Assembly: GCA_963703315.1 (NCBI GenBank)
Contig: OY969811.1
Coordinates: forward strand, 3,840,001 to 3,904,000
Length of the DNA stretch: 64,000 nt
Reading direction: 5' to 3'
From: an uncultured cyanobacterium
GTDB taxonomy: Bacteria > Cyanobacteriota > Cyanobacteriia > Pseudanabaenales > Pseudanabaenaceae
Positions within the stretch are counted from its first letter, which is position 1; each line of letters begins with the position of its first letter. This document shows positions 942 through 54,272 of this stretch, piece by piece. The notes under the pieces are model-generated. The model saw only the letters and a program-made list of their open reading frames with translations, was not told the DNA's origin and did no database searches. The position numbers were made by a program, and so were the translations under genes.

Positions 942-1035
942 AAATTCACGATTCTCTAAGAAATCTATCGGAATCTTAAGGATAAAGAAAAGTCGTATTT
1001 ACTTAGATTTTTTTACAATCTTCACTACAAGAGGC

Positions 1036-3384
1036 ATGGGCAGAATGTTTGTTCTTTTGAGGCAACAACTAAAGCCATTCCCAAGAATTGTAGCAATTGT
1101 TATGCTAGCTCTGGTTTACTATGCAACAGCAGAGCTTTCACGTCATGTCGCAGCTACACCCCAAGCCGTTACACCTGTATGGCCACCTGATGGATTTGCG
1201 GCTGCGGCAGTCCTCACTTTTGGGATTCAGATCTTACCTGGAGTTTTCATTGGTTCATTTCTGGCAAATATCTGGGCGTTTTTTAATGCTGATAGTTTGT
1301 ATATGGGCATTACCTCAACTTTACAGGTCATAGGAATCGCGATCGGTACAACAATTGGGGCTGGGGTAGGTAACTATTTATTACGTCGGTCAATTAAAGG
1401 AAGAGATCCTTTCCGTAAGTTGAATGATACCTATAAATTCCTCGGTTTTATCGGTCTTGTAATACCAATAATTAATGCCACTATAGGTGTGATTTGTCTA
1501 TGCTTAGGAGGTAATGTTTCTTGGTCAGCATTTGTTCAGACTTGGCTAACTTGGTGGATTTCCAATGTTGCAGGGATATGCATATTTACTCCAGCTATTC
1601 TAAGTTGGTATACACTTAGATTCAAGATAATCAGAAACCATGTAACTTCATCAAGTTCAAACCGAAGCAATACAAAAGAAACTAAGCAATGGAAAATTAG
1701 GATATGGCGAGTTTCTGAAGCAGTAATTTTAACCTTAATTGTTTTTTATATTAGCCTTATTTCTTTCTATGAAAATTATCATCTTGAATACATCTTACTG
1801 CCTTGTTTAGTATGGTCAGTACTACGATTTGGTCAGTTTGGAGCAACTAATTTAATTGTCATCATCACGATGATTGCTGTTTTAGGAACTGTTAGAGAAT
1901 TAGGTACATTTGCCTTTAACAATTCTCATTACTCACTGATTTTATTACAGTCTTTTATTATTGTGATTGTAGTTACGACATTAAGCTTAAATGCCATATT
2001 ATCTGAAAAGCAACAAGCGATCGCCAATCTCCAGCATTCAAAAACAAGATTAACAAATAAATCTAATCAGCTTGAAAGTAGTAAAGCTATTCTCAAAACA
2101 ACTGCATTAATGTTAGAACAAAAAAATGCTGCATTAACTGAAGCTAAGAAGTTTGCCGAGAAAGCAAGTCTCACGAAGACTGAATTTTTATCTAACATGA
2201 GTCATGAGTTAAGAACGCCACTCCATGCAATTTTAGGCTTTGTTCAATTATTACAAGAGTCTCCAAATTTAGATCAACAAGATAAGTCTGATCTGCAAAC
2301 TGTCTATAAATCTGGCATCCATTTATTAAACTTAATTAATGATATTCTCGACATTTCTAAAATTGAAGTTGGTAAATTAGAACTGCAATCACAGGATATA
2401 TTTTTTTACGTGTTTCTAAAGGATTTAGTAGAAATCAATCGAATTCAAGCTGTACAAAAAAAAATTAATTTTTTCTATGATTTTTCTGACAACCTACCTG
2501 AATTAGTACTTGCAGATGCCAAAAGATTAAAACAGGTAATCTTGAATTTATTGAGTAATGCAATTAAATTTACGGATCAGGGTTATGTAATATTTAGAGT
2601 TAGAGCGGATCAGGTGGAAGGAGTAGATGATGAGATAATCAAGCCGCGTATGTTAATTCATTTTGAAGTAGAAGATACTGGTATCGGTATTCCAGAAGAC
2701 AAATTAGAATCAATTTTTTTACCATTCGAGCAAACAGGAGATACAAAATTTAAGGTTCAAGGCACTGGTTTAGGACTAGCGATTAGCCAAAAGATTCTGG
2801 CAATGATGGATAGTAAAATTACTGTTAGTAGTCAAAAAGGAGTTGGTAGTATTTTTCGCTTTACAATCTGTCTCGAAACTCCTAAATCGACGCTTGTAGA
2901 TCAACTGCATGATTCTATCGATAGGTGTGCAATCAATCAGGAATTTCCTTTTGATCGAAATTTAGCTAAACAATTACCCTTGAAGATTTTACTAGCTGAA
3001 GACAATATTATTAATCAGAAAGTTGCCCTAAAAATTTTGAATCAATTAGGTTATGAAATTAGTATTGTTAATAATGGGGTGAAAGTTTTAGAGGCTCTCA
3101 ATGAGCATATCTATGATGTAATTTTGATGGATGTCCAAATGCCTGAGATGAATGGGATTGAAACTACGAAACAGATTTTACAAAATCAAAGCTTGAGCCA
3201 ACGACCTTATATCATTGCGATGACGGCAAATGCGATGGACGGCGATCGCCTGATTTGTTTAGAGGCTGGTATGGATGACTACATTAGTAAGCCCATTGAT
3301 GTGAACTTATTAGTAGAGGCTCTTTGGAAATCGCAATATCATAGACAGGGCAATGATACTTTTTCGGGTGTTGTCGATACCTGA
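1036..3384 (+). CDS. MASE1-domain hybrid sensor histidine kinase/response regulator
   Basis: MASE1 (VWPPDG, TWWISN, many TM helices), H-box FLSNMSHELRTPL, N/G boxes, receiver ILMDVQMP. Confidence 0.92.
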   Translation: MGRMFVLLRQQLKPFPRIVAIVMLALVYYATAELSRHVAATPQAVTPVWPPDGFAAAAVLTFGIQILPGVFIGSFLANIWAFFNADSLYMGITSTLQVIGIAIGTTIGAGVGNYLLRRSIKGRDPFRKLNDTYKFLGFIGLVIPIINATIGVICLCLGGNVSWSAFVQTWLTWWISNVAGICIFTPAILSWYTLRFKIIRNHVTSSSSNRSNTKETKQWKIRIWRVSEAVILTLIVFYISLISFYENYHLEYILLPCLVWSVLRFGQFGATNLIVIITMIAVLGTVRELGTFAFNNSHYSLILLQSFIIVIVVTTLSLNAILSEKQQAIANLQHSKTRLTNKSNQLESSKAILKTTALMLEQKNAALTEAKKFAEKASLTKTEFLSNMSHELRTPLHAILGFVQLLQESPNLDQQDKSDLQTVYKSGIHLLNLINDILDISKIEVGKLELQSQDIFFYVFLKDLVEINRIQAVQKKINFFYDFSDNLPELVLADAKRLKQVILNLLSNAIKFTDQGYVIFRVRADQVEGVDDEIIKPRMLIHFEVEDTGIGIPEDKLESIFLPFEQTGDTKFKVQGTGLGLAISQKILAMMDSKITVSSQKGVGSIFRFTICLETPKSTLVDQLHDSIDRCAINQEFPFDRNLAKQLPLKILLAEDNIINQKVALKILNQLGYEISIVNNGVKVLEALNEHIYDVILMDVQMPEMNGIETTKQILQNQSLSQRPYIIAMTANAMDGDRLICLEAGMDDYISKPIDVNLLVEALWKSQYHRQGNDTFSGVVDT

Positions 3385-20970: not shown

Positions 20971-21168
20971 TGCCAGATTTTACATCGCAATACAGTATAA
21001 AAACCCAAAAAATGAATGGCGGCGCGAAGCGCCGCCATTCATTTTTTGGGTTTAAGTTCCTATAAATAAAAATTCTTACGACAAATAGCTTAGATATTTA
21101 CTGGAACCGTGCGATCGCCTCCCCCGTCAAAATTGGCATACAGGAATTATGCAGACAGAGAGAAGATC

Positions 21169-27392: not shown

Positions 27393-27573
27393 GTAGGGGC
27401 ATAGCATTCCCACAGAGATTTAGGCGTTTACAGATTGCCTTGATTTGGGAATGCTATGCCCTCAACCTGTAATCGTAGGGACAATTTATCGGTGAAAGTG
27501 GAGAGGGTTTAGCATTTGCGGATCGAGATTGTGGTTATGAGTTTAGAAATTGTGGCGCAAATGTTAAACCTCT
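27393..27573. repeat. REP/REPIN-like long hairpins (GTAGGG family)
   Basis: GTAGGGGCATAGCATTCCC...GGGAATGCTATGCCCT; 27503-27573 is the reverse complement of the first half of the 47074/49148 repeat. Confidence 0.7.
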
Positions 27574-28980
27574 TTCGCTAAAGTTTTGAATAGTAGTCTC
27601 GAATTTTGTATGACATCAATTTTCGACGCGCTTCCAAAAATTCTGCGTAGTCTTCGATGTTTTTAACCTCCATTCCATCGGGCAGACAATGATCTGCAAG
27701 GTTCTTATTTAACTCACTATAATTCACGATGCCCCCATAAAAGGCTTGCTGAGTCTTACATTGCTCTTGTAGAGTTTTAAAATATTGATCTGGCGAACGG
27801 TCTTTAATTGCAATGTTAATTTCACTCTGCATCATGACGTAATTGGCAATCTGGTTATATTGACCTTTTTCTAAGTTGTTCCGCTTGAGATAGTTTTTTG
27901 GAAATATATGGTGAATGTCTCCTCTATTCATTATCAAATCTCTCACAGTAATATCTTTAGAAAGAAATCCCTTGTTGTTGCCATGAATTTGAGAGGCAAG
28001 AAACACTTTAAAATATGGGCTGCTGGCGACAGAAGTATCCATTTGTTGAGGAAGCCCAGCATCCCAGAATGCTTGAGATAATTCAGCAGCTTCTATCTCA
28101 GATTGATAGCGACTCATTCCCAATTCATCAATTCGTCTAATATCAGTATCAAATGTTGATTCAGGTGAGCCAGAATATCTACCTGTGAGGACAGACATGA
28201 CTAGCCACTTACGCACATGGGATTCAATCTTAGCAGGAGGTGTACTTTTTGATTTGAGAACTAAGTAAATTACATAGGCAAAGTTGATGGCATTGCGAGA
28301 ACGAATCATTGAAGGTTCAACAAATCCAGCAGATTTCAAAATCATAATGAACTTCTTGAAATTAGTCTCATTCATGAATTTGAGAATACCTTCGTCTAAT
28401 TTTCTGAAAGACTCCTCAGCGATCTCATCTTCATAGGTTCGAGTTTCAAAATTTCTGCCTGAAAGCAAAGCAACAAGATCTTGCAATCGCCCACGTTTAA
28501 ACTCTGAAGTAAAAGCGACCCTAAGCATATCTGAGTAAGACGGATCGTATAAATCATCGTTCTCATCCTTTAGCCAAGACATCTTTTGAAAATATGCGGT
28601 TGCGCCAAATTCTTGATCAAGGTCAGCCAACTGTTGATAAAACTGAGGAGCTTTAGCCAAATGGCAAAAATAATCAATACATTTGCGAAGCTTATTGCCA
28701 CCATAAGTTTCGTTAGCGGCAATTTTTGACATAACGAAATCTGCTTGATTGAGAACAGCTCCCTGCGAATTGATGCGAATAAAAATTTCTGTAACTACCT
28801 CAATATCTAGATCTGAGTTAAGTTCAATAAGCCCAATATGGTTATTAACTACTCCTCGTAACAGTTCCAGACTATTGTAGATAGCGTCTTGGTCTGTATT
28901 TTCATTGCGATCGCAGTATTCCCCTTGTATCTAGGAGGAAAAGTAAAGGATAAAATCTTTACTACAATCCGAAAAAGCAA

Positions 28981-29140
28981 AAGCAGAGATAAACTCGATC
29001 TGCCCCTAGGGACACCAAGCCCGTTTTGTAGATAGAGTCGTCTCTGCTTAAACAGTGGAAACAAGTAAAGACTGGACAGTATCAGAGGTCGCCCAACGGG
29101 TAAACCTGCATTCACAAGGATAGTTCAATACCACTGATTG
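28981..29140 (+). ncRNA. IS110 bridge RNA (target-binding and donor-binding loops; true 5'/3' ends unknown)
   Basis: Stem AAGCAGAGA/TCTCTGCTT encloses LTG TCTGCCCCT (28999-29007) and RTG TTTGTAG (29025-31); stem CAGTGG/CCACTG encloses LDG ACAGTATC (29076-83) and RDG ACAAG (29114-18). Confidence 0.85.
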
Positions 29141-29175
29141 CTTGATGGACAAATCTAGCAAGAGGACTGCCCCCA

Positions 29176-30162
29176 ATGAACAATAACAATGAAGTATATG
29201 ATGTTTTAGGAATAGATATCAGCAAAGCCAAATTTGATGTTGCTCTAATCCAAGGCAACGCCAAAATCAAGAGCAAAGTATTTGCCAACAATCCTGAAGG
29301 ATTTGCTGAATTACAAGAATGGCTAAACCTTCAAAATGTGACAAACTTGCATAGTTGTATGGAAGCTACCAGCACTTACGGCAATGGGTTAGCTAGATTC
29401 TTAGTAGAGGCAGGATACAAAGTAAGTATTGTTAATCCATCCCGTCCCAAAGCCTTTGGCAAGAGTGAGTTAAGTCGTACAAAGACTGACCGTGCTGATG
29501 CTAAAGTCATTGCTAGATTTTGTGCAGCCTTAAAACCTGCTCTTTGGACACCACCAGCATTAGAAATTGAGCAACTACAAGCATTGGTGCATCGTTTAGA
29601 TAGCTTAACTGCTATGCAGCAGCAAGAGCAGAATCGTCTTGCTACGGCTGATCCAATTTTGGTTGAGGCAATTAATGCTCACATTGATTTTCTCAAAGAG
29701 CAAATTGAGATGACCAAAAAATTGATCCGTCAGCACTTTGATCAACACCCTCATTTGAAATCTCAACGGGATTTGTTGACTTCTATTCCTGGTATTGCTG
29801 AACTGACCGCAACTATATTACTGGCGGAAATTCGGGATATTTCTGCCTTTGATACTGCTGATCAACTGGCAGCTTTTGCGGGTTTAACTCCCCGTGAGTT
29901 CTCATCTGGTTCTTCGATTCATGGTAAGCCACGTTTATCTAAAATTGGTAATTCGCGTTTGCGTAAAGCTTTGTTTATGCCTGCGATTGTTGCCCGTCGT
30001 TATAATTTGCCGATTGCTGCTTTCTGCGCTCGCCTTACGGCTAAGGGTAAGTCCAAAATGTCTGTCATTGGGGCTGTCATGCACAAGCTGTTACGACAGG
30101 TCTTTGGCGTTCTCAAGTCTCAGCGTTCTTTCGACCCAAATTTTGTTCAAATTCCCTCTTGA
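29176..30162 (+). CDS. IS110 family DEDD recombinase/transposase
   Basis: GIDISK, CMEATS, KTDRADA (DEDD); AFAGLTP..SSGSS catalytic-Ser loop; [10 protein letters not shown]. Confidence 0.96.
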
Positions 30163-30677
30163 CTTTTTGGTACTCAAGACAGTATCTACAAATTTAAGTA
30201 CTTTAAAATCAGGTGCAAAAATCTCTGAGATATCTGAAACCCAAGATTTATCTTTAACAATAGCTGGGTTGGAAACCTCAAATCGTTGTTCTTGTGGATT
30301 AAAGGCAATAGTAATTTTAATCCTCTGATAGTCTTTATTGATGACGTACATTCCCAGAATTGCTGCCATCAATGCTGTAACTCTCTGCTGTCCGTCAATT
30401 AAGATTCGTTTGCCTTGAGACGTTGTACCGTCTTTCAGTTTTACCGTTGGATTGCGCCACGCAATTAGATACCCAACTGGATAGCCTTGATATAACGAGT
30501 CGATTAAATCTCTAACTTTTGAACCATTCCAAACAAAAGGACGCTGTATTTCTGGGATTGCAATTTCCTCAGATCTAACCCAAGTTAGTAGAGTTTGAAT
30601 AGGATGCTGATTAACGGAATATTTTTGAATTGACATGGCTTATTATCTAGATTTAGTTAGCTTGAAATGACTGCAAA

Positions 30678-31034: not shown

Positions 31035-31409
31035 CTATTGAACGATCACTTTGCCTTGCATACCAGCTCCACGGTGAGGAGAGCAATAGTAAGCAAATTC
31101 ACCAGCTTCATTGAAGGTGGACTCTAGCTCAGCCTTAGGCTTTTGAGCCAACTTCTTGTGAGAAAGTTCTTCATGACCATCAAATACGACGTTGTGAGGG
31201 AAAGCTTTGTTATTCACCCATCTAACAGTGTCGCCAACTTTGATTGTGACTACTTTAGGCTCGAATACTAGCTGACCACCATCGGAACCCATCTTTACGG
31301 TGACAGTATCAGCCGATGCAGGAGATGCGGTGATGAACAAGCTACCAATAACAAACAAAAGGCTAGCGATCGCTAAGCCTAGCTTTTTCGCAAAAGAAGA
31401 AATATTCAT
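31035..31409 (-). CDS. petE: plastocyanin
   Basis: Signal peptide, PHNVVF, YYCSPHRGAGM copper ligands. Confidence 0.97.
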   Translation of the reverse strand: MNISSFAKKLGLAIASLLFVIGSLFITASPASADTVTVKMGSDGGQLVFEPKVVTIKVGDTVRWVNNKAFPHNVVFDGHEELSHKKLAQKPKAELESTFNEAGEFAYYCSPHRGAGMQGKVIVQ

Positions 31410-47073: not shown

Positions 47074-47254
47074 GTAGGGGTCAAGCATTTGCGCCACAAT
47101 ATCTAAACTCTTCACAAAAAATCTCAATCCGCAAATGCTTGACCCTCTTCGCTCTTTCAATAAATTGTCCCTGCGTTGTGGGGATTGGGCGTAGCATTAC
47201 CGTTTGACGATCGCGAAGATATGCGTAAATGGTGGCGGCAATGCTGCGCCCCTT
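47074..47254. repeat. ~180 bp composite REPIN-like repeat, copy 1
   Basis: AAGCATTTGCGCCACAATAT...GCAAATGCTT plus GGGCG.AGCATTACCG..CGG.AATGCT.CGCCC; direct copy at 49148. Confidence 0.75.
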
Positions 47255-47347
47255 CGAGATTTTGAGGTTTCTTGCGGAGATAGATAGACTGTAAAAGCAA
47301 TGATATAATGCTGGCATAGAATCTGCCCCATCAAATCCTCAGAAAAA

Positions 47348-47808: not shown

Positions 47809-49099
47809 CAATACTACGGACAAAGTTGGTCAGAAATAGAACCGTAGGAGCAAAGCTTGTGGAAATTAGGGTGAGATTTAATCGAAGTAAGGTCTAAATC
47901 TAACAGGGAAATAAAGCGTTTAAGGAGATGACGATTGAAAGCCAAGCGTTTGTAACTCGCCATCGAAAAAACAAAAGGTTTGTGAGAATGAGCCGCAAGA
48001 TGAGTTTGCCAAGCATCGAATTTAGCCAGATTTAGAGCCATCAAGGAAGCATTGAAATGAAAGTCAAGCTTGGTCAAATTACGAGCTTGGCAATCGGCTA
48101 AACCAGTAAACTGTTTGGCATCACGAAAAATGAATTCAATTTGAAAACGAGATTTATAGAAGCAAAGAATTTCCGATGCATCAAGATTGATATCGGTGGA
48201 GAACAACAAAGCCAGTCCAACGCGCTCAGGGTTACGGCAGTCTCGAATATAAGCAAGACGGACTTTACGTTTCATGCTTACGACCCAGACTTCGACAGTG
48301 TAAAGGTACAGGGTTGGTTCAATCTCTGAGACTAAAGTCATGCGACTGACATCAGTCAAGTCTACCTTGCCATCGTACTTGCGTTTTCGACCACGAGGTT
48401 TCTGCTCACCTCTGTAGACATAACGCATATCTGCATCACACCGTAACTTGCCAATCGCATCTAAGCCCAAGTTAGTGACACCATCGACCCACTTAATTTT
48501 GCTATAAAATCCATCACTAACGATGTGTCGGGCTGATTTTGGGAAATAGGTCTTGGTGGCTGCTAGTTGCTCCAGATACCAATCAATTCTTGTTCTCTCG
48601 GCTTGAGCGGGTGGCGTTTGCTGTACCGATAGTGCGTATCCCTGTTTGTGATCAACATCGACTACTGCTACTACTGCTACCTCCAATCCTTTTTCAGCTT
48701 TTCCTGCACTCCCGTTGTAGAAGTACTCGATTCCATAGGTTGCTTTGCCACTTTTCCTGATGAATGAGCAGTCTGTGGCAATGATCTGCCGCGATGTTGG
48801 CAAAATCGCTCTTTGGATGATCTCTGCGTTCCCTTTGATGAAGTTGTATGAACGCGAAAACTGCCGTCGATAGCTGCGTTCACTGATTTCGCTATAGCGA
48901 CTTAGATTCATGAAGTTTACCTTCCCGCACATCACGATGATCGTTGAAAACAGGATTGATAGAAATTTCTGTTGTATTTTACTCTCTATCTTCGGTACTA
49001 TGGCGATCATGCTATTCATTTGGTGTTTCGTTTCGACACTTGCACCTTATCCGATGAATAGCTTTTTTGTTTCATTTTTGAAAATTGTCCGTAGTATTG
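47809..49099 (-). mobile_element. 1291-bp DDE IS (IS701/IS4-like), copy 1
   Basis: 15-bp TIR CAATACTACGGACAA; 6-bp TSD TTCTGA (47803-08, 49100-05). Confidence 0.92.
47814..49019 (-). CDS. DDE transposase
   Basis: ATDCSFI, VSDGFY, YKSRFQIEFIFRDAKQ. Confidence 0.92.
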   Translation of the reverse strand: MNSMIAIVPKIESKIQQKFLSILFSTIIVMCGKVNFMNLSRYSEISERSYRRQFSRSYNFIKGNAEIIQRAILPTSRQIIATDCSFIRKSGKATYGIEYFYNGSAGKAEKGLEVAVVAVVDVDHKQGYALSVQQTPPAQAERTRIDWYLEQLAATKTYFPKSARHIVSDGFYSKIKWVDGVTNLGLDAIGKLRCDADMRYVYRGEQKPRGRKRKYDGKVDLTDVSRMTLVSEIEPTLYLYTVEVWVVSMKRKVRLAYIRDCRNPERVGLALLFSTDINLDASEILCFYKSRFQIEFIFRDAKQFTGLADCQARNLTKLDFHFNASLMALNLAKFDAWQTHLAAHSHKPFVFSMASYKRLAFNRHLLKRFISLLDLDLTSIKSHPNFHKLCSYGSISDQLCP

Positions 49100-49147
49100 T
49101 TCTGAGAATCAGTAAATTTAATAATCACCAACAGCACCAATAACTTT

Positions 49148-49330
49148 TAGGGGGTTAAGCATTTGCGCCACAATATTCAAACTCCTCACAAAAAATCTCG
49201 ATCTGCAAATGCTTAACCCTCTTTGCTCTCACCGATCGCTTGTCTCTGCGTTGTGAGGTTTGGGCGAAGCATTACCGTTTGGAGGCTGTGGTGAAATGCA
49301 TAAATGGTGGCGGTAATGCTACGCCCCTAC
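49148..49330. repeat. ~180 bp composite REPIN-like repeat, copy 2
   Basis: Diverged direct copy of 47074-47254, ending GCCCCTAC. Confidence 0.75.
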
Positions 49331-50232
49331 GATAATTTTTACTTTCTACTTTTTCCTTGAGGATCGGTTATGGCTTCGCGGTTTTATGTGTTGGTGTTTG
49401 TAGCTTTGACTGGAATACTGGGCATGGTGTCACCTCCTGATTTAGCTTTGTTGACAGTTCAGGCACAAACACGCAAAACAGAAGCAAATCGACTGCTTAA
49501 TCAAGGGATTCAGCAATTTCAATTCAGCCAGTTTGAAGCCGCATTTCAGTCATGGCAGCAAGCACTGACTATCTACAGGGAGATAAAAGATCGGCAGGGA
49601 GAGTCGGCAGCACTGGGAAATCTTGGGAACACTTATGATTCTCTCGGCAACTATGGCAAGGCGATCGAATATCAACTGCAAAGTTTAGAAATTGAGCGAG
49701 AAATCAAAAACCGACTCGGCGAGGGACAATCGTTGGGAAACTTAGGAATCTCTTACTATCGACTCGGCAAATACGATAAGGTGATTGAGTTCCAATTGCA
49801 AAGTTTGACAATCAAGCGAGAAATTAAAGATCAGCGTGGTGAGGGCAACGCCCTGAGCAATCTGGGGATTGCTTACTATGCTATTGGCAGATATGACAAA
49901 GCAATCGAATTCTATTTGCAAAGCTTGAGCATTTTCCGAGAACTTAAAGATCGTTTTGGTGAGGGAAACGCGCTGAGTAACTTGGGAACTGCTTACGATG
50001 CCCTTGGCGATTATGGCAAAGCAATCAATTATCAACTGCAAAGCCTAGAAATTGCAAGGGAAGTTAAAGACCGACGGGGGGAGGGACAGGCTTTAAGTAA
50101 TTTAGCTTACTATGCCATAGGTAAATATGATAAAGCGATTGCCCATAACCTGCAATCTTCGGCGATCGCAAAGGAAACTAGAGATCGTCTGATTAGAAAA
50201 AATTCTCTTAATAATTTTGGTGTTGCATACGA

Positions 50233-51523
50233 CAATACTACGGACAATTTTCAAAAATGAAACAAAAAAGCTATTCATCGGATAAGGTGCAAGTGTCGAA
50301 ACGAAACACCAAATGAATAGCATGATCGCCATAGTACCGAAGATAGAGAGTAAAATACAACAGAAATTTCTATCAATCCTGTTTTCAACGATCATCGTGA
50401 TGTGCGGGAAGGTAAACTTCATGAATCTAAGTCGCTATAGCGAAATCAGTGAACGCAGCTATCGACGGCAGTTTTCGCGTTCATACAACTTCATCAAAGG
50501 GAACGCAGAGATCATCCAAAGAGCGATTTTGCCAACATCGCGGCAGATCATTGCCACAGACTGCTCATTCATCAGGAAAAGTGGCAAAGCAACCTATGGA
50601 ATCGAGTACTTCTACAACGGGAGTGCAGGAAAAGCTGAAAAAGGATTGGAGGTAGCAGTAGTAGCAGTAGTCGATGTTGATCACAAACAGGGATACGCAC
50701 TATCGGTACAGCAAACGCCACCCGCTCAAGCCGAGAGAACAAGAATTGATTGGTATCTGGAGCAACTAGCAGCCACCAAGACCTATTTCCCAAAATCAGC
50801 CCGACACATCGTTAGTGATGGATTTTATAGCAAAATTAAGTGGGTCGATGGTGTCACTAACTTGGGCTTAGATGCGATTGGCAAGTTACGGTGTGATGCA
50901 GATATGCGTTATGTCTACAGAGGTGAGCAGAAACCTCGTGGTCGAAAACGCAAGTACGATGGCAAGGTAGACTTGACTGATGTCAGTCGCATGACTTTAG
51001 TCTCAGAGATTGAACCAACCCTGTACCTTTACACTGTCGAAGTCTGGGTCGTAAGCATGAAACGTAAAGTCCGTCTTGCTTATATTCGAGACTGCCGTAA
51101 CCCTGAGCGCGTTGGACTGGCTTTGTTGTTCTCCACCGATATCAATCTTGATGCATCGGAAATTCTTTGCTTCTATAAATCTCGTTTTCAAATTGAATTC
51201 ATTTTTCGTGATGCCAAACAGTTTACTGGTTTAGCCGATTGCCAAGCTCGTAATTTGACCAAGCTTGACTTTCATTTCAATGCTTCCTTGATGGCTCTAA
51301 ATCTGGCTAAATTCGATGCTTGGCAAACTCATCTTGCGGCTCATTCTCACAAACCTTTTGTCTTTTCGATGGCGAGTTACAAACGCTTGGCTTTCAATCG
51401 TCATCTCCTTAAACGCTTTATTTCCCTGTTAGATTTAGACCTTACTTCGATTAAATCTCACCCTAATTTCCACAAGCTTTGCTCCTACGGTTCTATTTCT
51501 GACCAACTTTGTCCGTAGTATTG
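50233..51523 (+). mobile_element. 1291-bp DDE IS (IS701/IS4-like), copy 2, inverted relative to copy 1
   Basis: Same TIR; 6-bp TSD ATACGA (50227-32, 51524-29). Confidence 0.92.
50313..51518 (+). CDS. DDE transposase
   Basis: Protein identical to 47814..49019. Confidence 0.92.
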   Translation: MNSMIAIVPKIESKIQQKFLSILFSTIIVMCGKVNFMNLSRYSEISERSYRRQFSRSYNFIKGNAEIIQRAILPTSRQIIATDCSFIRKSGKATYGIEYFYNGSAGKAEKGLEVAVVAVVDVDHKQGYALSVQQTPPAQAERTRIDWYLEQLAATKTYFPKSARHIVSDGFYSKIKWVDGVTNLGLDAIGKLRCDADMRYVYRGEQKPRGRKRKYDGKVDLTDVSRMTLVSEIEPTLYLYTVEVWVVSMKRKVRLAYIRDCRNPERVGLALLFSTDINLDASEILCFYKSRFQIEFIFRDAKQFTGLADCQARNLTKLDFHFNASLMALNLAKFDAWQTHLAAHSHKPFVFSMASYKRLAFNRHLLKRFISLLDLDLTSIKSHPNFHKLCSYGSISDQLCP

Positions 51524-52556
51524 ATACGAAAGACTAAATCCAGAACAAGAAGCAATAATTTATTTGCAGGAAGCATTAATTATCGCCAAGGAGGTGAGTG
51601 ATCGCAGTAGTGAAGGTTTAGCACTTGCTAATCTGGGAAATATGTTGTCTAAAGCAAAGCAATCCGAACTAGCGATTCTCTTTTACAAACAATCAATCAA
51701 TGTCCGTGAAGAGATCCGCAAAGACATCAAAAAACTTGACAGAGATATCCAAAAGTCGTATTTGACCACAGTCGAAAAGACCTATCGCGACCTCGCCGAC
51801 CTCCTCCTCCAACAAAACCGCATCATCGAAGCCCTGCAAGTCCTCGACCTCCTTAAAGTCCAAGAACTCGAAGACTATCTCAAAAACATCAAAGGCAACG
51901 ATAGATCCGCACAGGGAGTCAGACTATTAGCACCAGAACAAGCTCTTAGCGATAAGCTATTAACCATTAGCCCTGACAATAGCCAAGACATAAACAATCA
52001 ACTTGCCAATCAAATCCAACAACTTCCCAAAACCGAAATCAACAAAGTTCCCTACTATCTCAACCAAATCCCGCAGGGAACCGTATTACTCTATCCATTT
52101 ATTTTAGGCGATCGCCTCGAAATCATCCTCTTTGCCCCCAACAACCCACCCATCCGCCGCACCACCACAATCTCCAAAGACCAACTAGAAACCTTAATTA
52201 GTGATTATAGAGTAGGACTCCTTGATCCTAGTTCCGAAGACTTCAAAGAGCCAGCTATCCAACTCTATAACCTCCTGATTAAACCCATCGAAGCCGAACT
52301 CGTTCAATTCAACACCAAAACGATTCTCTATGCACCTGATGGACAACTGCGCTACATCCCCATCGCTGCACTCTATGACGGTAAACAATTGTTAGTTGAG
52401 AAATACCAGATTAGCAACATCATCGCCTATACCCTCTCCGACTTTACACCACAACCCAAAAACTCACCCAACATCCTCGCAGGAGCCTTTGGCGGTAAAG
52501 CAGGCGATCGCAAATTTGGACAAACAGCCTTACCCGCAACCGTCAGAGAAGTTCAA

Positions 52557-54272
52557 CCCACATTCCGCTCGTAATGGAAGGGTAAAATAATTAACTAAAG
52601 GTAAGGCACAAGAGCAAAAAGAGGAGGCAGGTATTAATACAGAGATGAAAGTAACGAACCTAGACCATCTAGGGATCGTGGCAGGAATCATCGACGAGAT
52701 GGGAATCGTGGAAGAAATAAACACGATAATCGGGAGAAGCTCAAGAGAAAAAGTAAGTGCAGGGGTAATTGTCAAAGCCATGCTAATGAATGGATTAGGA
52801 TTTGTATCAGCCCCCCTGTATATGTTTAGTAAATTTTTTGAAGGAAAACCAGCCGAGCACTTATTGGGGGAAGGGATAACAGCCGAACAAATCAATGATG
52901 ACCGCATCGGTAAAGTACTGGATGACTTACATGAAGCAGGACTGAGTGAGACATTTTTAGGAATCAGCCTGAAAGCAGTAGCGAAATACGATGTCAAGGT
53001 AGAAACAGGACATATAGACTCAACCTCATTTCACGTAGATGGGGAATATGGCAGAGAGGAAGAAGGGAGTATCGAAATCACACACGGATATTCACGCGAC
53101 CATCGCCCCGACCTGAAGCAATTTATGATGAACCTGATCTGTGTAGGAGATGGAGACATTCCCGTAATGATGGAAGTGGTAAGTGGAAATCAAGCCGACA
53201 AAGCAAGATTTGCAGGACTATTACAAGAATTCAAAACCCAGTGGACATTTGAGGGAATATGCGTAGGCGATGCAGCGCTATACAGTGAAGAAAATCTGGT
53301 AGCAATGACAGGACTAAAATGGCTAACCCGAGTGCCATTAAGCATCAAAACTGCAAGTGACTTAGTGTCAAGCACAACTGACCTACAAGAAAGTAAATTT
53401 AAGGGATACAGGACAGCCGAAACTGTGAGTGAGTATGGTGGTGTAAGACAGAGATGGATTTTAGTTGATAGCCAAGCAAGACGTAAATCAGACATCAAAA
53501 AGTTAGACAAAAAGCTTGAGCAAGTCCAGCAAAAATGTCATCAAGATTTACACACTTTGGCGGGACAAGATTTTGCCTGTGCTGCTGACGCGATCGCTGC
53601 TGCTGAAAAATTATCAACCAAGATGAAATGGCATCAACTCGACCATATTCAAGCAGTAGAAAAACCACATTATGCGAAACGGGGTAAGCCACAACCTGAT
53701 GCTATACCCACCAGCATTAGTTATCGGATTACTGCAACGGTGATTCCTATAGACTCAGAAATCTTGGCTCAGCAACAGCGTTGTGGCAGGTTTATTTTAG
53801 CCACGAATATTCTTGATTCCTTACAATTCACGGCTGATGATGCTTTACGGGAATACAAGGCTCAGCAGAGCACTGAGCGTGGTTTTCGTTTCCTCAAAGA
53901 TCCTTTGTTTTTTACTTCGAGTGTTTTTCTCAAGTCTGCTAAACGCATTGAGGCTTTGGGCATGATTATGGCACTGTGCTTGCTCGTTTATAATTTAGCC
54001 CAACGTCAACTCAGACTTGCCTTAGCCATCGCTCAAGATACTATTCCTAATCAATTGGGTAAACCCACTAATTCGCCAACTTTGCGTTGGATTTTTCAAT
54101 GTTTTATGGCGGTTCATTTAGTTTCTTTTCAGGGACTCACTCAAGTTGTTAATTTGTCTCCTCTTCGGATTCACATTTTGAATTTCTTTTCTCCCTCCTG
54201 CCAACGCTACTATTTGCTCCCTGCTCCTGTTTCGTAATTGTTTTTTTTCTTCCATTACGAGCGGAATGTGGG
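52557..54272 (+). mobile_element. IS1634-family insertion sequence
   Basis: 24-bp perfect TIR CCCACATTCCGCTCGTAATGGAAG; TSD TTCAA (52552-56, 54273-77). Confidence 0.92.
52645..54237 (+). CDS. IS1634 family transposase
   Basis: LDHLGIVAG (DUF4277), HIDSTSF, GYSRDHRPDLKQF, YKAQQSTERGFRFLKDP. Confidence 0.93.
   Translation: MKVTNLDHLGIVAGIIDEMGIVEEINTIIGRSSREKVSAGVIVKAMLMNGLGFVSAPLYMFSKFFEGKPAEHLLGEGITAEQINDDRIGKVLDDLHEAGLSETFLGISLKAVAKYDVKVETGHIDSTSFHVDGEYGREEEGSIEITHGYSRDHRPDLKQFMMNLICVGDGDIPVMMEVVSGNQADKARFAGLLQEFKTQWTFEGICVGDAALYSEENLVAMTGLKWLTRVPLSIKTASDLVSSTTDLQESKFKGYRTAETVSEYGGVRQRWILVDSQARRKSDIKKLDKKLEQVQQKCHQDLHTLAGQDFACAADAIAAAEKLSTKMKWHQLDHIQAVEKPHYAKRGKPQPDAIPTSISYRITATVIPIDSEILAQQQRCGRFILATNILDSLQFTADDALREYKAQQSTERGFRFLKDPLFFTSSVFLKSAKRIEALGMIMALCLLVYNLAQRQLRLALAIAQDTIPNQLGKPTNSPTLRWIFQCFMAVHLVSFQGLTQVVNLSPLRIHILNFFSPSCQRYYLLPAPVS

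What the first reader, a model, noticed from the sequence alone, without database searches (positions are those of the whole stretch)
28924..30187. IS110 element with a fully readable bridge RNA: RNA-guided recombinase whose guides match both donor and target
Seen: the IS is bounded by a CT core. Its circle junction would be ACAGTAT-CT-TGTAT and the restored target TATTCCC-CT-ACAAA. The 250-bp left end has two stem-loops. Loop 1 (stem AAGCAGAGA/TCTCTGCTT, inner GGG/CCC hairpin) carries TCTGCCCCT (7/9 identical to the left target plus core) and TTTGTAG (exact reverse complement of CTACAAA). Loop 2 (stem CAGTGG/CCACTG) carries ACAGTATC (left donor) and ACAAG (reverse complement of CTTGT). Established: IS621-type IS110 elements express a bispecific bridge RNA with this LTG/RTG/LDG/RDG layout, and the donor here matches the IS621 donor as I recall it. 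Inference: this is an intact cyanobacterial bridge recombinase with a different natural target specificity, potentially reprogrammable.
Basis: partly seen in the sequence, partly recalled or inferred. Interest (0 to 1): 0.92.

Follow-up and report, generated by a model that had tools for sequence, protein, structure and literature searches.

The report
IS621-type bridge-RNA insertion sequence, cyanobacterial
This is an intact, recently active IS110-family mobile element that carries its own RNA guide for choosing insertion sites; it is a new cyanobacterial member of a kind described in 2024, and this copy has landed off-target in a phage-defence gene.

Summary
Window 28926-30185, with a CT core on each side, is a 1260-bp IS110-group element. 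It has a 250-nt left end, a 328-aa DEDD/serine recombinase gene and a 23-nt right end.

The recombinase aligns end to end with the solved IS621 and ISCro4 recombinases and keeps all five catalytic residues. The left end encodes a bridge RNA with the IS621 guide layout, and its 14-nt donor is identical to IS621's wild-type donor as printed in the Durrant 2024 supplement.

The genome holds seven near-identical copies. The other six show the real target, ...ATGCTCT(G/A)CCC-CT-AC(A/G). This matches the target-loop guide TCTGCCCCT 9/9 in five copies and 8/9 in one, and it lies at the 3' base of a long hairpin repeat.

The window copy is the exception. Its left guide matches 7/9, its extended right guide 7/7, and there is no hairpin. 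It splits a GmrSD/HEC-05 defence gene that is uninterrupted in a same-genus genome.

Across 27 insertions in 15 guide classes, the left target guide tracks the left flank. The RNA stems covary, and a sigma-70-like promoter appears only at the predicted circle junction.

No transcript or circle was shown. Verdict: a new member of a known kind, of moderate-to-low interest.

The parts
28924..28925 (+). Left CT core dinucleotide. It is shared with the target, so the element could equally be drawn as 28924-30185.
   Evidence: all seven copies have CT on both sides.
28926..29175 (+). Left non-coding end (250 nt), which encodes the bridge RNA. The right donor arm TGTAT is at 28926-28930.
   Evidence: Covariance model R1 hits 28975-29140 at 199 bits.
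28942..28963 (+). 5' stem-loop (AGTAAAG / CTTTACT), in the position of the first hairpin of the IS621 bridge RNA.
   Evidence: MFE and centroid fold. Comparison with the IS621 RNA sequence in the supplement of PMC11208160.
28981..29049 (+). Target-binding loop module. Outer stem 28981-28990 pairs with 29040-29049. Second stem ACTC 28993-96 pairs with GAGT 29035-38. Inner hairpin GGG 29009-11 pairs with CCC 29020-22.
   Evidence: All 17 pairs of these three helices show compensatory changes on alignment A3.
28999..29007 (+). Left target guide (LTG), TCTGCCCCT.
   Evidence: Identical to the left flank plus core of five other copies, 8/9 in one, and 7/9 in the window copy. It occupies the 9-N LTG slot of the IS621 template.
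29025..29033 (+). Right target guide: TTT extension plus GTAG (29028-31), followed by handshake bases AT (29032-33).
   Evidence: GTAGAT is the same as in IS621. The seven right flanks begin CTAC followed by A or G. The window copy matches all 7 nt.
29053..29136 (+). Donor-binding loop module. Outer stem 29053-58 pairs with 29131-36. Second stem GACTG 29070-74 pairs with TAGTT 29121-25. The inner hairpin is 29086-29107.
29076..29083 (+). Left donor guide (LDG), ACAGTATC.
   Evidence: It equals the last 7 nt of the element plus C of the core, and has the same letters and slot as IS621. In relative L040 both the guide and the right end read ACAGCAT.
29110..29120 (+). Right donor guide, split as in IS621: AT (29110-11), a 2-nt skip, ACAAG (29114-18), then handshake bases GA (29119-20).
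   Evidence: ACAAG is the reverse complement of CTTGT, and AT pairs with donor positions 13-14. The layout matches the IS621 template NN-TT-NNNNNNN.
29176..30162 (+). Recombinase gene, 328 aa. The catalytic residues are D14, E63, D105, D108 and S244.
   Evidence: Pfam PF01548 at 8.5e-27 and PF02371 at 1.4e-26. PDB matches to ISCro4 at 3.5e-76 and IS621 at 7e-73. Residues read against the IS621 numbering.
30159..30164 (+). TTGACT, the predicted -35 box of a promoter that is completed only in the circular form. The -10 box TATCTT is 30183-30187 plus 28926, with an 18-nt spacer.
   Evidence: Script using the scan tool's own criteria. The same arrangement occurs in 10 of 11 relatives. None is found in the 7 integrated copies.
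30163..30185 (+). Right non-coding end (23 nt), finishing with the left donor arm ACAGTAT (30179-30185).
30186..30187 (+). Right CT core dinucleotide.
30188..30636 (-). N-terminal part of the interrupted GmrSD/HEC-05-type defence gene.
   Evidence: Pfam GmrSD_N at 3.9e-22. PADLOC HEC-05 at 4.9e-20.
27578..28925 (-). C-terminal part of the same interrupted gene.
   Evidence: PADLOC HEC-05 at 2e-18, profile positions 346-592 of 600. A single 599-aa frame results after in-silico excision. The ortholog in G454 is uninterrupted.

Best explanation
This is a functional, recently active IS110-group insertion sequence of the IS621 type.

Inferred mechanism, by homology with IS621: the element excises as a circle. 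Joining the right and left ends across the CT core creates a sigma-70-like promoter. That promoter transcribes the left end into a bridge RNA of about 200 nt, and probably the recombinase mRNA behind it.

The RNA's donor loop (ACAGTATC, plus AT..ACAAG) pairs with the two strands of the circle junction ACAGTAT-CT-TGTAT. Its target loop (TCTGCCCCT, plus GTAG with a TTT extension) pairs with the two strands of a genomic site. A tetramer of the DEDD/serine recombinase exchanges strands at the CT core.

The natural target is TCT(G/A)CCC-CT-AC(A/G), at the 3' foot of a hairpin repeat with a 14-17 bp stem. The window copy is an off-target event. There the left arm pairs at 7 of 9 positions, the extended right arm pairs at all 7, and there is no hairpin. 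It inserted into and split a GmrSD/HEC-05 defence gene.

Shown here: anatomy, homology, copy number, exact boundaries, guide-flank covariation and stem covariation. Inferred: transcription, circle formation, RNA-protein binding, catalysis and reprogrammability.
For: Protein:
- Both IS110 Pfam domains are present.
- The match to the IS621 and ISCro4 recombinases in the PDB is full-length, at 7e-73 and 3.5e-76.
- D14, E63, D105, D108 and S244 align with IS621 D11, E60, D102, D105 and S241.

Guide layout: LTG, RTG with handshake bases, LDG and the split RDG sit in the same slots as the N-positions of the published IS621 template. The donor 14-mer is identical to IS621's wild-type donor (supplement of PMC11208160).

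Activity:
- There are seven copies. Four are identical, two differ by one extra C, and one by a single substitution.
- The covariance model finds exactly these seven in the genome.
- The insertion is precise, and an empty orthologous site exists in a same-genus genome.

Guides:
- In 27 insertions falling into 15 LTG classes, the LTG matches its own left flank at a mean 6.11 of 7 non-core positions, against 2.5 of 7 for other classes' flanks.
- 0 of 10,000 shuffles reached the observed total of 90 of 105.
- Twelve further fetched copies follow the same rule (5 at 9/9, 3 at 8/9, 4 at 7/9; one of the 8/9 repeats L009); a thirteenth locus, L062, lacked the hairpin motif and was not scored.
- RTG GAAG goes with right flank CTTC in L032. 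LDG ACAGCAT goes with right end ACAGCAT in L040.

Structure:
- 36 pairs are 92.7% paired, and 33 of 36 show compensatory changes. Slid controls give 31-45%.
- On the MAFFT-only alignment of nine close relatives, 90.4% are paired against 30-49%.

Promoter: TTGACT, 18 nt, TATCTT is formed only across the junction. It is present in the window element and in 10 of 11 relatives, and in 0 of 7 integrated copies. This agrees with the statement in PMC11208160 that the circle reconstitutes a promoter.
Against: - No transcript was shown. The only RNA-library run that holds the element (X6) is kept as contigs. Those cover 28921-29227 and parts of the gene, which does not prove transcription.
- No contig in the four runs joins right end to left end.
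- Rfam 15 gave no bridge-RNA hit, so no curated model vouches for the RNA.
- The single-sequence fold is only modestly better than shuffles (z = -2.7), and its MFE pairs part of the LTG with part of the RTG.
- Alignment A3 was fitted to the structure, which inflates the pair counts.
- The simple scan finds no promoter in the integrated copies, so it is unclear how excision is started.
- One relative, L010/L036, has an LTG that matches its own flank at only 3 of 9 positions.
- L033 was not found by the covariance model at E <= 0.01, and its junction gave no promoter match.
Confidence: 0.9

Rival explanations
1. The element is a dead relic. The ORF and RNA gene look intact but no longer move, and the seven copies arose by duplication of the regions that carry them.
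For: No circle junction and no proven transcript. No promoter-like site in the integrated copies.
Against: - The seven copies lie in seven different contexts with unrelated right flanks, and each is bounded exactly by the CT cores.
- They differ by at most one base or one indel.
- The reading frame is open with all catalytic residues in place.
- A same-genus genome has the window site empty.
- 12 of 48 genomes of the genus carry the element, at copy numbers up to about ten matches. This is the pattern of an active IS.
Confidence: 0.04
2. Target choice is made mainly by the protein recognising the hairpin repeat (a structure or a DNA motif). The left-end RNA is a 5' leader or regulatory RNA, and its similarity to the flank is a by-product.
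For: - Six of seven copies sit at the foot of a strong hairpin (DNA fold z = -6.1 and -5.8).
- A 2026 preprint on ISPpu10 (abstract read) reports that a target stem-loop adds specificity beyond base pairing.
Against: - The LTG changes in step with the flank across 15 classes, including targets that belong to unrelated repeats (CCCGCCCCT, ACCGCGACT, TGACATCCT).
- The window copy and several copies in G438 inserted where there is no such repeat but partial guide matches exist.
- The guide slots coincide with those shown experimentally to be programmable in IS621.
- A contributing role for the hairpin is not excluded. It is part of the best explanation rather than a replacement for it.
Confidence: 0.05
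3. The window copy did not insert by its own guide. It was placed there by homologous or illegitimate recombination, or the site was once a canonical target that later mutated.
For: Its left flank matches the LTG at only 7 of 9 positions, and it lacks the hairpin.
Against: - The junctions are exact at CT, and excision restores a 599-aa frame.
- The flank is coding sequence that is 96% conserved in the ortholog of G454, which reads TATTCCC-CC-ACGAA at the empty site. The site was therefore never a repeat terminus.
- The right flank matches the extended RTG 7/7. Only 8 of 236 unoccupied two-mismatch sites in the genome have three or more extended matches.
- Half-site-driven off-target insertion is reported for IS621 (preprint 10.64898/2026.08.31.748434, section 8 read).
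Confidence: 0.03

Closest known systems
IS621 of Escherichia coli (IS110 group): bridge RNA and recombinase. Sources: Durrant et al. 2024, PMC11208160; Hiraizumi et al. 2024, PMC11208158; PDB 8WT6.
   Same: - Same two Pfam domains and the same five catalytic residues.
- CT core, a long left end and a short right end.
- A two-loop RNA with a 9-nt LTG, GTAG plus AT handshake bases, LDG ACAGTATC, and a split RDG.
- An identical 14-nt donor, ACAGTAT-CT-TGTAT.
- A promoter rebuilt across the circle junction.
- A preference for a repeated palindromic element as target.

   Different: - The protein is distant: 248.7 bits over 312 aligned residues, about 47% identity to enterobacterial relatives by tblastn, and no DNA-level match in E. 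coli genomes.
- The target guide is TCTGCCCCT rather than ATCGGGCCT.
- The RDG pairs perfectly (ACAAG), where the wild-type IS621 RNA has GCAAG.
- The DBL outer stem carries larger bulges.
- The host is a cyanobacterium, and the target is a hairpin with a 14-17 bp stem rather than an enterobacterial REP.
ISCro4 / IS622 (PDB 9T56; preprint 10.1101/2025.05.14.653916, listing and abstract start only).
   Same: It is the best PDB match, at 3.5e-76 over residues 9-321.
   Different: Only the protein was compared here. Its RNA and ends were not examined.
ISPpu10 of Pseudomonas putida (preprint 10.64898/2026.03.19.712850, abstract read).
   Same: All canonical insertions lie in copies of one repeated intergenic sequence. 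The part of that sequence 5' of the paired target forms a stem-loop. Here the left target arm is the 3' end of a hairpin.
   Different: It is a different lineage with different guides. The contribution of the hairpin was not tested here. The window copy shows that insertion can occur without it.
[quoted passage not shown]
   Same: An IS110-family element that uses the termini of another repeated element as its landing site, and can occupy both ends. Here, two hairpin-repeat composites carry an IS at each end, in inverted orientation.
   Different: IS1111-group elements carry the guide RNA in the right end and have subterminal inverted repeats. This element belongs to the IS110 group.

Membership tests
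IS110 family, IS110 group (IS621-type bridge recombinase element) | [quoted passage not shown] | tested here: met
   8.5e-27, residues 11-156.
IS110 family, IS110 group (IS621-type bridge recombinase element) | C-terminal Tnp domain (PF02371) with the conserved catalytic serine. | tested here: met
   1.4e-26, residues 199-280. S244 aligns with IS621 S241.
IS110 family, IS110 group (IS621-type bridge recombinase element) | The catalytic DEDD tetrad (IS621 D11, E60, D102, D105). | tested here: met
   D14, E63, D105 and D108 fall in the aligned columns. The residue list comes from PMC11208158.
IS110 family, IS110 group (IS621-type bridge recombinase element) | No long terminal inverted repeats, a CT core at both ends, and no target duplication beyond the core. 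| tested here: met
   All seven copies have this form. The frame is restored when one CT is kept. An empty orthologous site exists.
IS110 family, IS110 group (IS621-type bridge recombinase element) | A left end much longer than the right end, with the structured ncRNA in the left end. | tested here: met
   The left end is 250 nt and the right end 23 nt. The structure is 92.7% paired, with 33 of 36 pairs showing compensatory change.
IS110 family, IS110 group (IS621-type bridge recombinase element) | A target-binding loop whose LTG equals the left target plus core, and whose RTG is complementary to the core plus right target. | tested here: met
   The LTG matches 9/9 in five copies, 8/9 in one and 7/9 in the window copy. 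The RTG pairs with CTAC in all seven. The covariation test gave 0 of 10,000 shuffles.
IS110 family, IS110 group (IS621-type bridge recombinase element) | A donor-binding loop whose LDG and RDG match the right-end/left-end junction. | tested here: met
   ACAGTATC and AT..ACAAG match against ACAGTAT-CT-TGTAT. The slots are the same as in the IS621 template. L040 shows a compensatory change.
IS110 family, IS110 group (IS621-type bridge recombinase element) | A promoter reconstituted across the circle junction. | tested here: met
   This is a consensus match only. TTGACT-18-TATCTT occurs in the window element and in 10 of 11 relatives, and in none of the integrated copies.
IS110 family, IS110 group (IS621-type bridge recombinase element) | Expression of the bridge RNA. 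| tested here: inconclusive
   Contigs of one RNA-library run cover 28921-29227. Contigs cannot show a transcript, its ends or its strand.
IS110 family, IS110 group (IS621-type bridge recombinase element) | A circular excision intermediate. | tested here: inconclusive
   No right-end-to-left-end joint was found in the contigs of four runs. No raw reads were available.
IS110 family, IS110 group (IS621-type bridge recombinase element) | RNA-protein binding, and guide-dependent, reprogrammable recombination. | not testable with these tools
   This needs bench assays.
Rfam bridge-RNA family | A hit to a curated covariance model. | tested here: not met
   No relevant hit at E <= 10 in Rfam 15 over 28500-30600. 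I saw no bridge-RNA family among the hits and did not check whether the library holds one.

The most novel reading that the evidence does not exclude
Within one cyanobacterial genus, sister lineages of this IS share one donor sequence. They have diversified their left target guides to follow sequence variants of a family of hairpin repeats: TCTGCCC, TCAACCC, TAAACCC, TTTGCCC and ATTGCCC, each before CT-AC.

Natural off-target insertions then follow a rule. Mismatches in the left guide and loss of the hairpin are offset by longer pairing of the extended right guide. The window copy in the defence gene is such a case.

Because the donors are identical, one lineage's RNA could also mobilise another lineage's circle. 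In relative L010/L036 the flank matches the guide of the co-resident element L018/L046 and not its own.
Probability: 0.35. Interest if true: 0.5.

Novelty: new member of a known kind. Interest (0 to 1): 0.33.

Why it matters
It does not change what is known about bridge recombinases. It does give a clean natural example in a phylum where I found none described: two library searches turned up no paper on cyanobacterial IS110 bridge RNAs.

Three things make it useful.

- The element has seven near-identical copies, a target defined by six of them, 14 unoccupied TCT(G/A)CCC-CT-AC sites (five exact, nine with the A variant), and one documented off-target. That makes it a ready test bed for the rules of specificity: left arm, extended right arm and target hairpin.
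- It shows the 14-nt donor and the whole guide layout conserved between enterobacterial and cyanobacterial elements whose proteins share only about 47% identity.
- A recombinase that already works in a cyanobacterial cytoplasm could be a starting point for programmable insertion in cyanobacteria.

For annotation, it shows that a GmrSD/HEC-05 defence gene in this genome was knocked out by the insertion.

Tried and rejected
- **Rfam 15 scan of 28500-30600 at E <= 10.** It gave only two chance hits, PhrS and a group II intron piece, both far below their gathering scores.
- **blastn of the whole element against 5,426 E. coli genomes.** No match, so IS621 could not be fetched by DNA similarity. A second attempt through an enterobacterial plasmid relative found only plasmid IS110 elements, not IS621. 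The IS621 sequence was therefore taken from the paper's supplement and compared by eye.
- **RNAalifold on the plain MAFFT alignment of 20 left ends.** It recovered only part of the donor loop, because the distant rows were misaligned. This was replaced by a hand-specified structure and a covariance model.
- **Sequencing runs.** All 24 listed runs are kept as contigs. Laying four of them gave no circle joint, no empty-site joint and no transcript ends. Word depth over the element was about 8-10 times that of the flanks in run X1. This agrees with a multi-copy element but is not a copy number.
- **Search of the held supplement text of PMC11208160 for this element's RNA and target.** It found nothing. 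Two of those files were cut when stored and one PDF could not be read, so the element may still be in that data set.
- **Right ends of the enterobacterial plasmid relatives L031 and L034.** None was found within about 660 nt of the stop codon, so they were left out of the donor and promoter counts.
- **Idea that the integrated left flank supplies a promoter.** No match was found in any of the 7 copies.
- **L037.** It was dropped from the guide/flank count because its contig ends before the left boundary.
- **L033.** It was not in the covariance-model alignment and was compared by eye only.
Full report
**1. What is there**

Window 28924-30187 reads CT, then TGTAT...ACAGTAT, then CT. Between the cores lie three parts:
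- a 250-nt non-coding left end (28926-29175);
- one ORF of 328 aa (29176-30162);
- a 23-nt right end.

The ORF carries the two Pfam domains of IS110 transposases, PF01548 at 8.5e-27 and PF02371 at 1.4e-26. It aligns over residues 9-321 with the two bridge recombinases of known structure, ISCro4 (9T56, 3.5e-76) and IS621 (8WT6, 7e-73). The IS621 catalytic residues named in PMC11208158 are D11, E60, D102, D105 and S241 (passages read). They fall on D14, E63, D105, D108 and S244 of this protein.

**2. Boundaries and copy number**

It holds seven copies of exactly this span. Four are identical, including the window's. Two have one extra C behind 29169, and one has G28997A. Each copy has CT on both sides.

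Removing 28926-30187 in silico restores one 599-aa reading frame on the minus strand. Its N-terminal part hits Pfam GmrSD_N. Both parts hit PADLOC HEC-05, at 4.9e-20 and 2e-18.

A same-genus genome, G454, has this gene uninterrupted. The left flank is 96% identical and the right flank 88% identical, and they abut. The empty site reads TATTCCC-CC-ACGAA. The element is therefore a precise, fairly recent insertion.

**3. The RNA**

The single-sequence fold gives three main stem-loops (z = -2.7 against shuffles).

The supplement of Durrant et al. 2024 (PMC11208160) prints the IS621 bridge RNA and a design template with N at the programmable positions. It gives the wild-type specificities as target ATCGGGCCTAC and donor ACAGTATCTTGTAT.

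Set side by side, the window's left end has the same order of parts:
- stem, then a 9-nt LTG (TCTGCCCCT, 28999-29007);
- a small hairpin;
- 3 extension bases, then GTAG, then handshake AT (29025-29033), then the closing stem;
- a second stem, then LDG ACAGTATC (29076-83);
- a hairpin;
- AT, a 2-nt skip, ACAAG, then two handshake bases (29110-20), then the closing stem.

The circle junction predicted from the element's ends, ACAGTAT-CT-TGTAT, is letter for letter the IS621 wild-type donor.

Handshake bases were checked against the pairing given in PMC11208158.
- The target-loop AT is complementary to donor positions 7 and 6.
- In the donor loop, G is complementary to target position 7 (C), but the following A is not complementary to position 6 (C).
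- So three of four handshake positions fit.

**4. Structure support**

I wrote the structure as 36 pairs.
- On a plain MAFFT alignment of nine close left ends, 90.4% of cells pair, against 30-49% when partners are slid by 1-3 columns. Seven pairs show compensatory changes.
- A covariance model built from it found exactly the seven copies in the own genome and nothing else.
- Over the 24 sources searched, that is the window and 23 fetched loci, it gave 23 matches at E <= 0.01. These include elements with only 50-60% protein identity and two enterobacterial plasmid elements.
- On that model-fitted alignment, 92.7% of cells pair, 33 of 36 pairs have compensatory changes, and slid controls give 31-45%. 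Because the alignment was fitted to the structure, these figures lean in its favour.
- One relative, L033, was not found by the model.

**5. The natural target**

The six other copies sit at ...(A)ATGCTCTGCCC-CT-AC(A/G) in five cases and ...TCTACCC-CT-AC in one. The LTG therefore equals the flank 9/9 five times and 8/9 once. The right flank always begins CTAC followed by A or G. That fits a right guide of 4-5 effective bases, UGUAG, with a G-U wobble.

The genome has 14 more unoccupied TCT(G/A)CCC-CT-AC sites, all preceded by ...GGCGCAAATGC or ...GGGAATGC.

These sites are the outward-facing feet of long hairpins with stems of 14-17 bp. Two hairpins with a spacer form composites of 176-237 bp. 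Two composites carry an IS at both ends in inverted orientation, one carries an IS at one end, and one is empty.

The 90 nt upstream of the core fold as DNA with z = -6.1 and -5.8 at two canonical sites. At the window site z is -0.4.

Relatives of the repeat lie in the window itself, at 27393-27573, 47076-47272 and 49150-49347.

**6. The window copy is an off-target**

Its left arm TATTCCC-CT matches the LTG at 7 of 9 positions, with the five positions next to the crossover all matching. It lacks the hairpin. Its right arm CTACAAA pairs with all 7 bases of the extended right guide.

The genome has 236 unoccupied sites with two left-arm mismatches plus CTAC. Only 8 of them have three or more extended right-arm matches.

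Among 23 insertions of the close clade with both flanks known, results split as follows:

| LTG match | n | Right-arm contiguous matches |
|---|---|---|
| 7/9 or fewer | 6 | 4, 5, 6, 6, 7, 7 |
| 8/9 or more | 17 | 4 (nine times), 5 (six times), 6, 7 |

The one-sided Mann-Whitney p is 0.016. These rows are not independent: two share a site type, and one is the L010 anomaly. This is a hint, not a result.

It agrees in spirit with two published observations on IS621. A 7-base right guide can be programmed (PMC11208160, legend read). And a core plus one matching arm can suffice for insertion (preprint 10.64898/2026.08.31.748434, section 8 read).

**7. Guides follow flanks across relatives**

Relatives came from four searches:
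- a scan of species-representative genomes (23 loci);
- plasmids (four regions fetched);
- 401 genomes of the phylum (10 with a match at 1e-60, own genome included);
- 48 genomes of the genus (12 with a match at 1e-40, own genome included).

For 27 insertions with a readable left boundary, the boundary was set by the conserved CT-TGTAT and not by the guide. The LTG falls into 15 classes. It matches its own flank at a mean 6.11 of 7 non-core positions, against 2.5 of 7 for other classes' flanks. With one representative per class, 90 of 105 positions match, and 0 of 10,000 shuffles reach that.

Rows dropped: L037, because its contig ends before the boundary, and L033, which is not in the alignment. 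By eye L033 matches 9/9.

I fetched 13 further loci. Twelve could be scored and gave 9/9 five times, 8/9 three times (one a repeat of L009) and 7/9 four times. L062 lacked the hairpin motif and was not scored.

Two further compensations are on record. In L032, RTG GAAG goes with right flank CTTC. In L040, LDG ACAGCAT goes with right end ACAGCAT.

The clear exception is L010/L036. Its LTG GAAACCCCT stands against flank ACCGCGACT (3/9). That flank is a perfect match to the LTG of a second element in the same genome, L018/L046.

**8. Promoter**

The scan tool finds no sigma-70-like site on the element's strand in 28700-30400. My script with the same criteria finds none within 70 nt upstream and 60 nt downstream of the left boundary of any of the seven integrated copies.

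In the joined circle form it finds TTGACT (30159-64, overlapping the stop codon), an 18-nt spacer, and TATCTT spanning the core. An equivalent pair is present in 10 of 11 relatives with both ends known, L033 being the miss. [quoted passage not shown]

This is a consensus match, not evidence of function.

**9. Expression and circles**

All runs offered are stored as contigs. I laid four of them on the window.
- One run from an RNA library has contigs over 28921-29227 and parts of the gene.
- DNA runs show the element at several times the depth of the flanks.
- Loose ends at 28921 in three runs read the canonical or sister target sequences.
- No contig joins right end to left end.

Nothing here proves transcription or excision.

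**10. Comparison and novelty**

The element works like IS621 and meets every membership feature that could be tested. Expression and the circle remain untested or inconclusive.

It differs in three ways:
- a distant protein, with no DNA match in E. coli genomes and about 47% identity to enterobacterial relatives;
- its target guide;
- its landing site, a long hairpin repeat of a cyanobacterium.

Targeting repeated palindromes is already known for the family: REP for IS621, a stem-loop-bearing repeat for ISPpu10 (abstract), and transposon termini for IS4321/IS5075 (reference seen). Durrant et al. report predicting bridge RNAs in 85.7% of IS110-group elements.

Two library searches found no paper on cyanobacterial IS110 bridge RNAs. 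This element's RNA was not in the held, partly truncated supplement text.

I file it as a new member of a known kind, and score interest 0.33.

The bolder reading is described under the novel case. It combines guide diversification along a hairpin-repeat family, right-arm compensation at off-targets, and cross-mobilisation through a shared donor. I put it at about one in three.

Noticed in passing
window 47809-49124 and 50208-51523: Two inverted copies (99% identical, 1316 nt) of a DDE-transposase IS. The ORF is 401 aa and hits PF01609 and PF13546. The copies lie around a TPR gene (49370-50260) and next to a TPR+CHAT gene piece (51564-52574). The second copy may have split a TPR-CHAT gene.
   Followed up: partly
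window 27393-27573, 47076-47272, 49150-49347: Members of the same hairpin-repeat superfamily that the IS targets (...GGCGCAAATG-N-CCCCT), with other sub-terminal variants such as TTAAACCTCT, CTTGACCCCT and CTATGCCCT. One sits directly downstream of the interrupted defence gene. Sister IS lineages in other genomes of the genus carry LTGs that fit such variants, for example TAAACCCCT.
   Followed up: partly
window, nine places from 4538 to 59663 (e.g. 21000-21053): A family of nine 54-nt palindromes built around GGCGGCGC-N4-GCGCCGCC, flanked by A-runs and T-runs. They are shaped like two-way terminators.
   Followed up: no
L010 = L036 and L018 = L046 (two contigs of one metagenome-assembled genome): The LTG of element L010 (GAAACCCCT) matches its own left flank at only 3/9. 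That flank (ACCGCGACT) is a 9/9 match to the LTG of the co-resident element L018, which has the same donor ends. This may be mobilisation in trans by another element's bridge RNA, or a mis-assembly.
   Followed up: partly
L015 778-864 and 1017-1164: In one of four Chamaesiphon copies the bridge-RNA gene is split. The target loop and the donor loop are separated by about 150 nt of foreign sequence.
   Followed up: no
L013 469-631 (minus) and 998-1164 (plus): Two different IS110 elements (LTG CCCGCCCCT and LTG ATTGCCCCT) lie head to head within about 400 nt.
   Followed up: no
L031 and L034 (enterobacterial plasmids, next to antirestriction genes): These relatives have a clear bridge RNA and left boundary, with the LTG matching the flank 9/9. 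Their LDG reads AAGGGTATC, and no matching right end lies within about 660 nt of the stop codon. The elements may be longer than the minimal form.
   Followed up: partly
L039 about 850-1100: Tandem copies of a ~112-nt unit, each ending in an unoccupied target (AACCCGCCC-CT-AC) of that genome's IS110 lineage. The last unit is occupied.
   Followed up: no
window 31035-31409 (minus): An ORF of 124 aa with a signal-peptide-like start and a C-terminal ...YYCSPHRGAGMQGKVIVQ. From memory it looks like plastocyanin. This was not tested.
   Followed up: no
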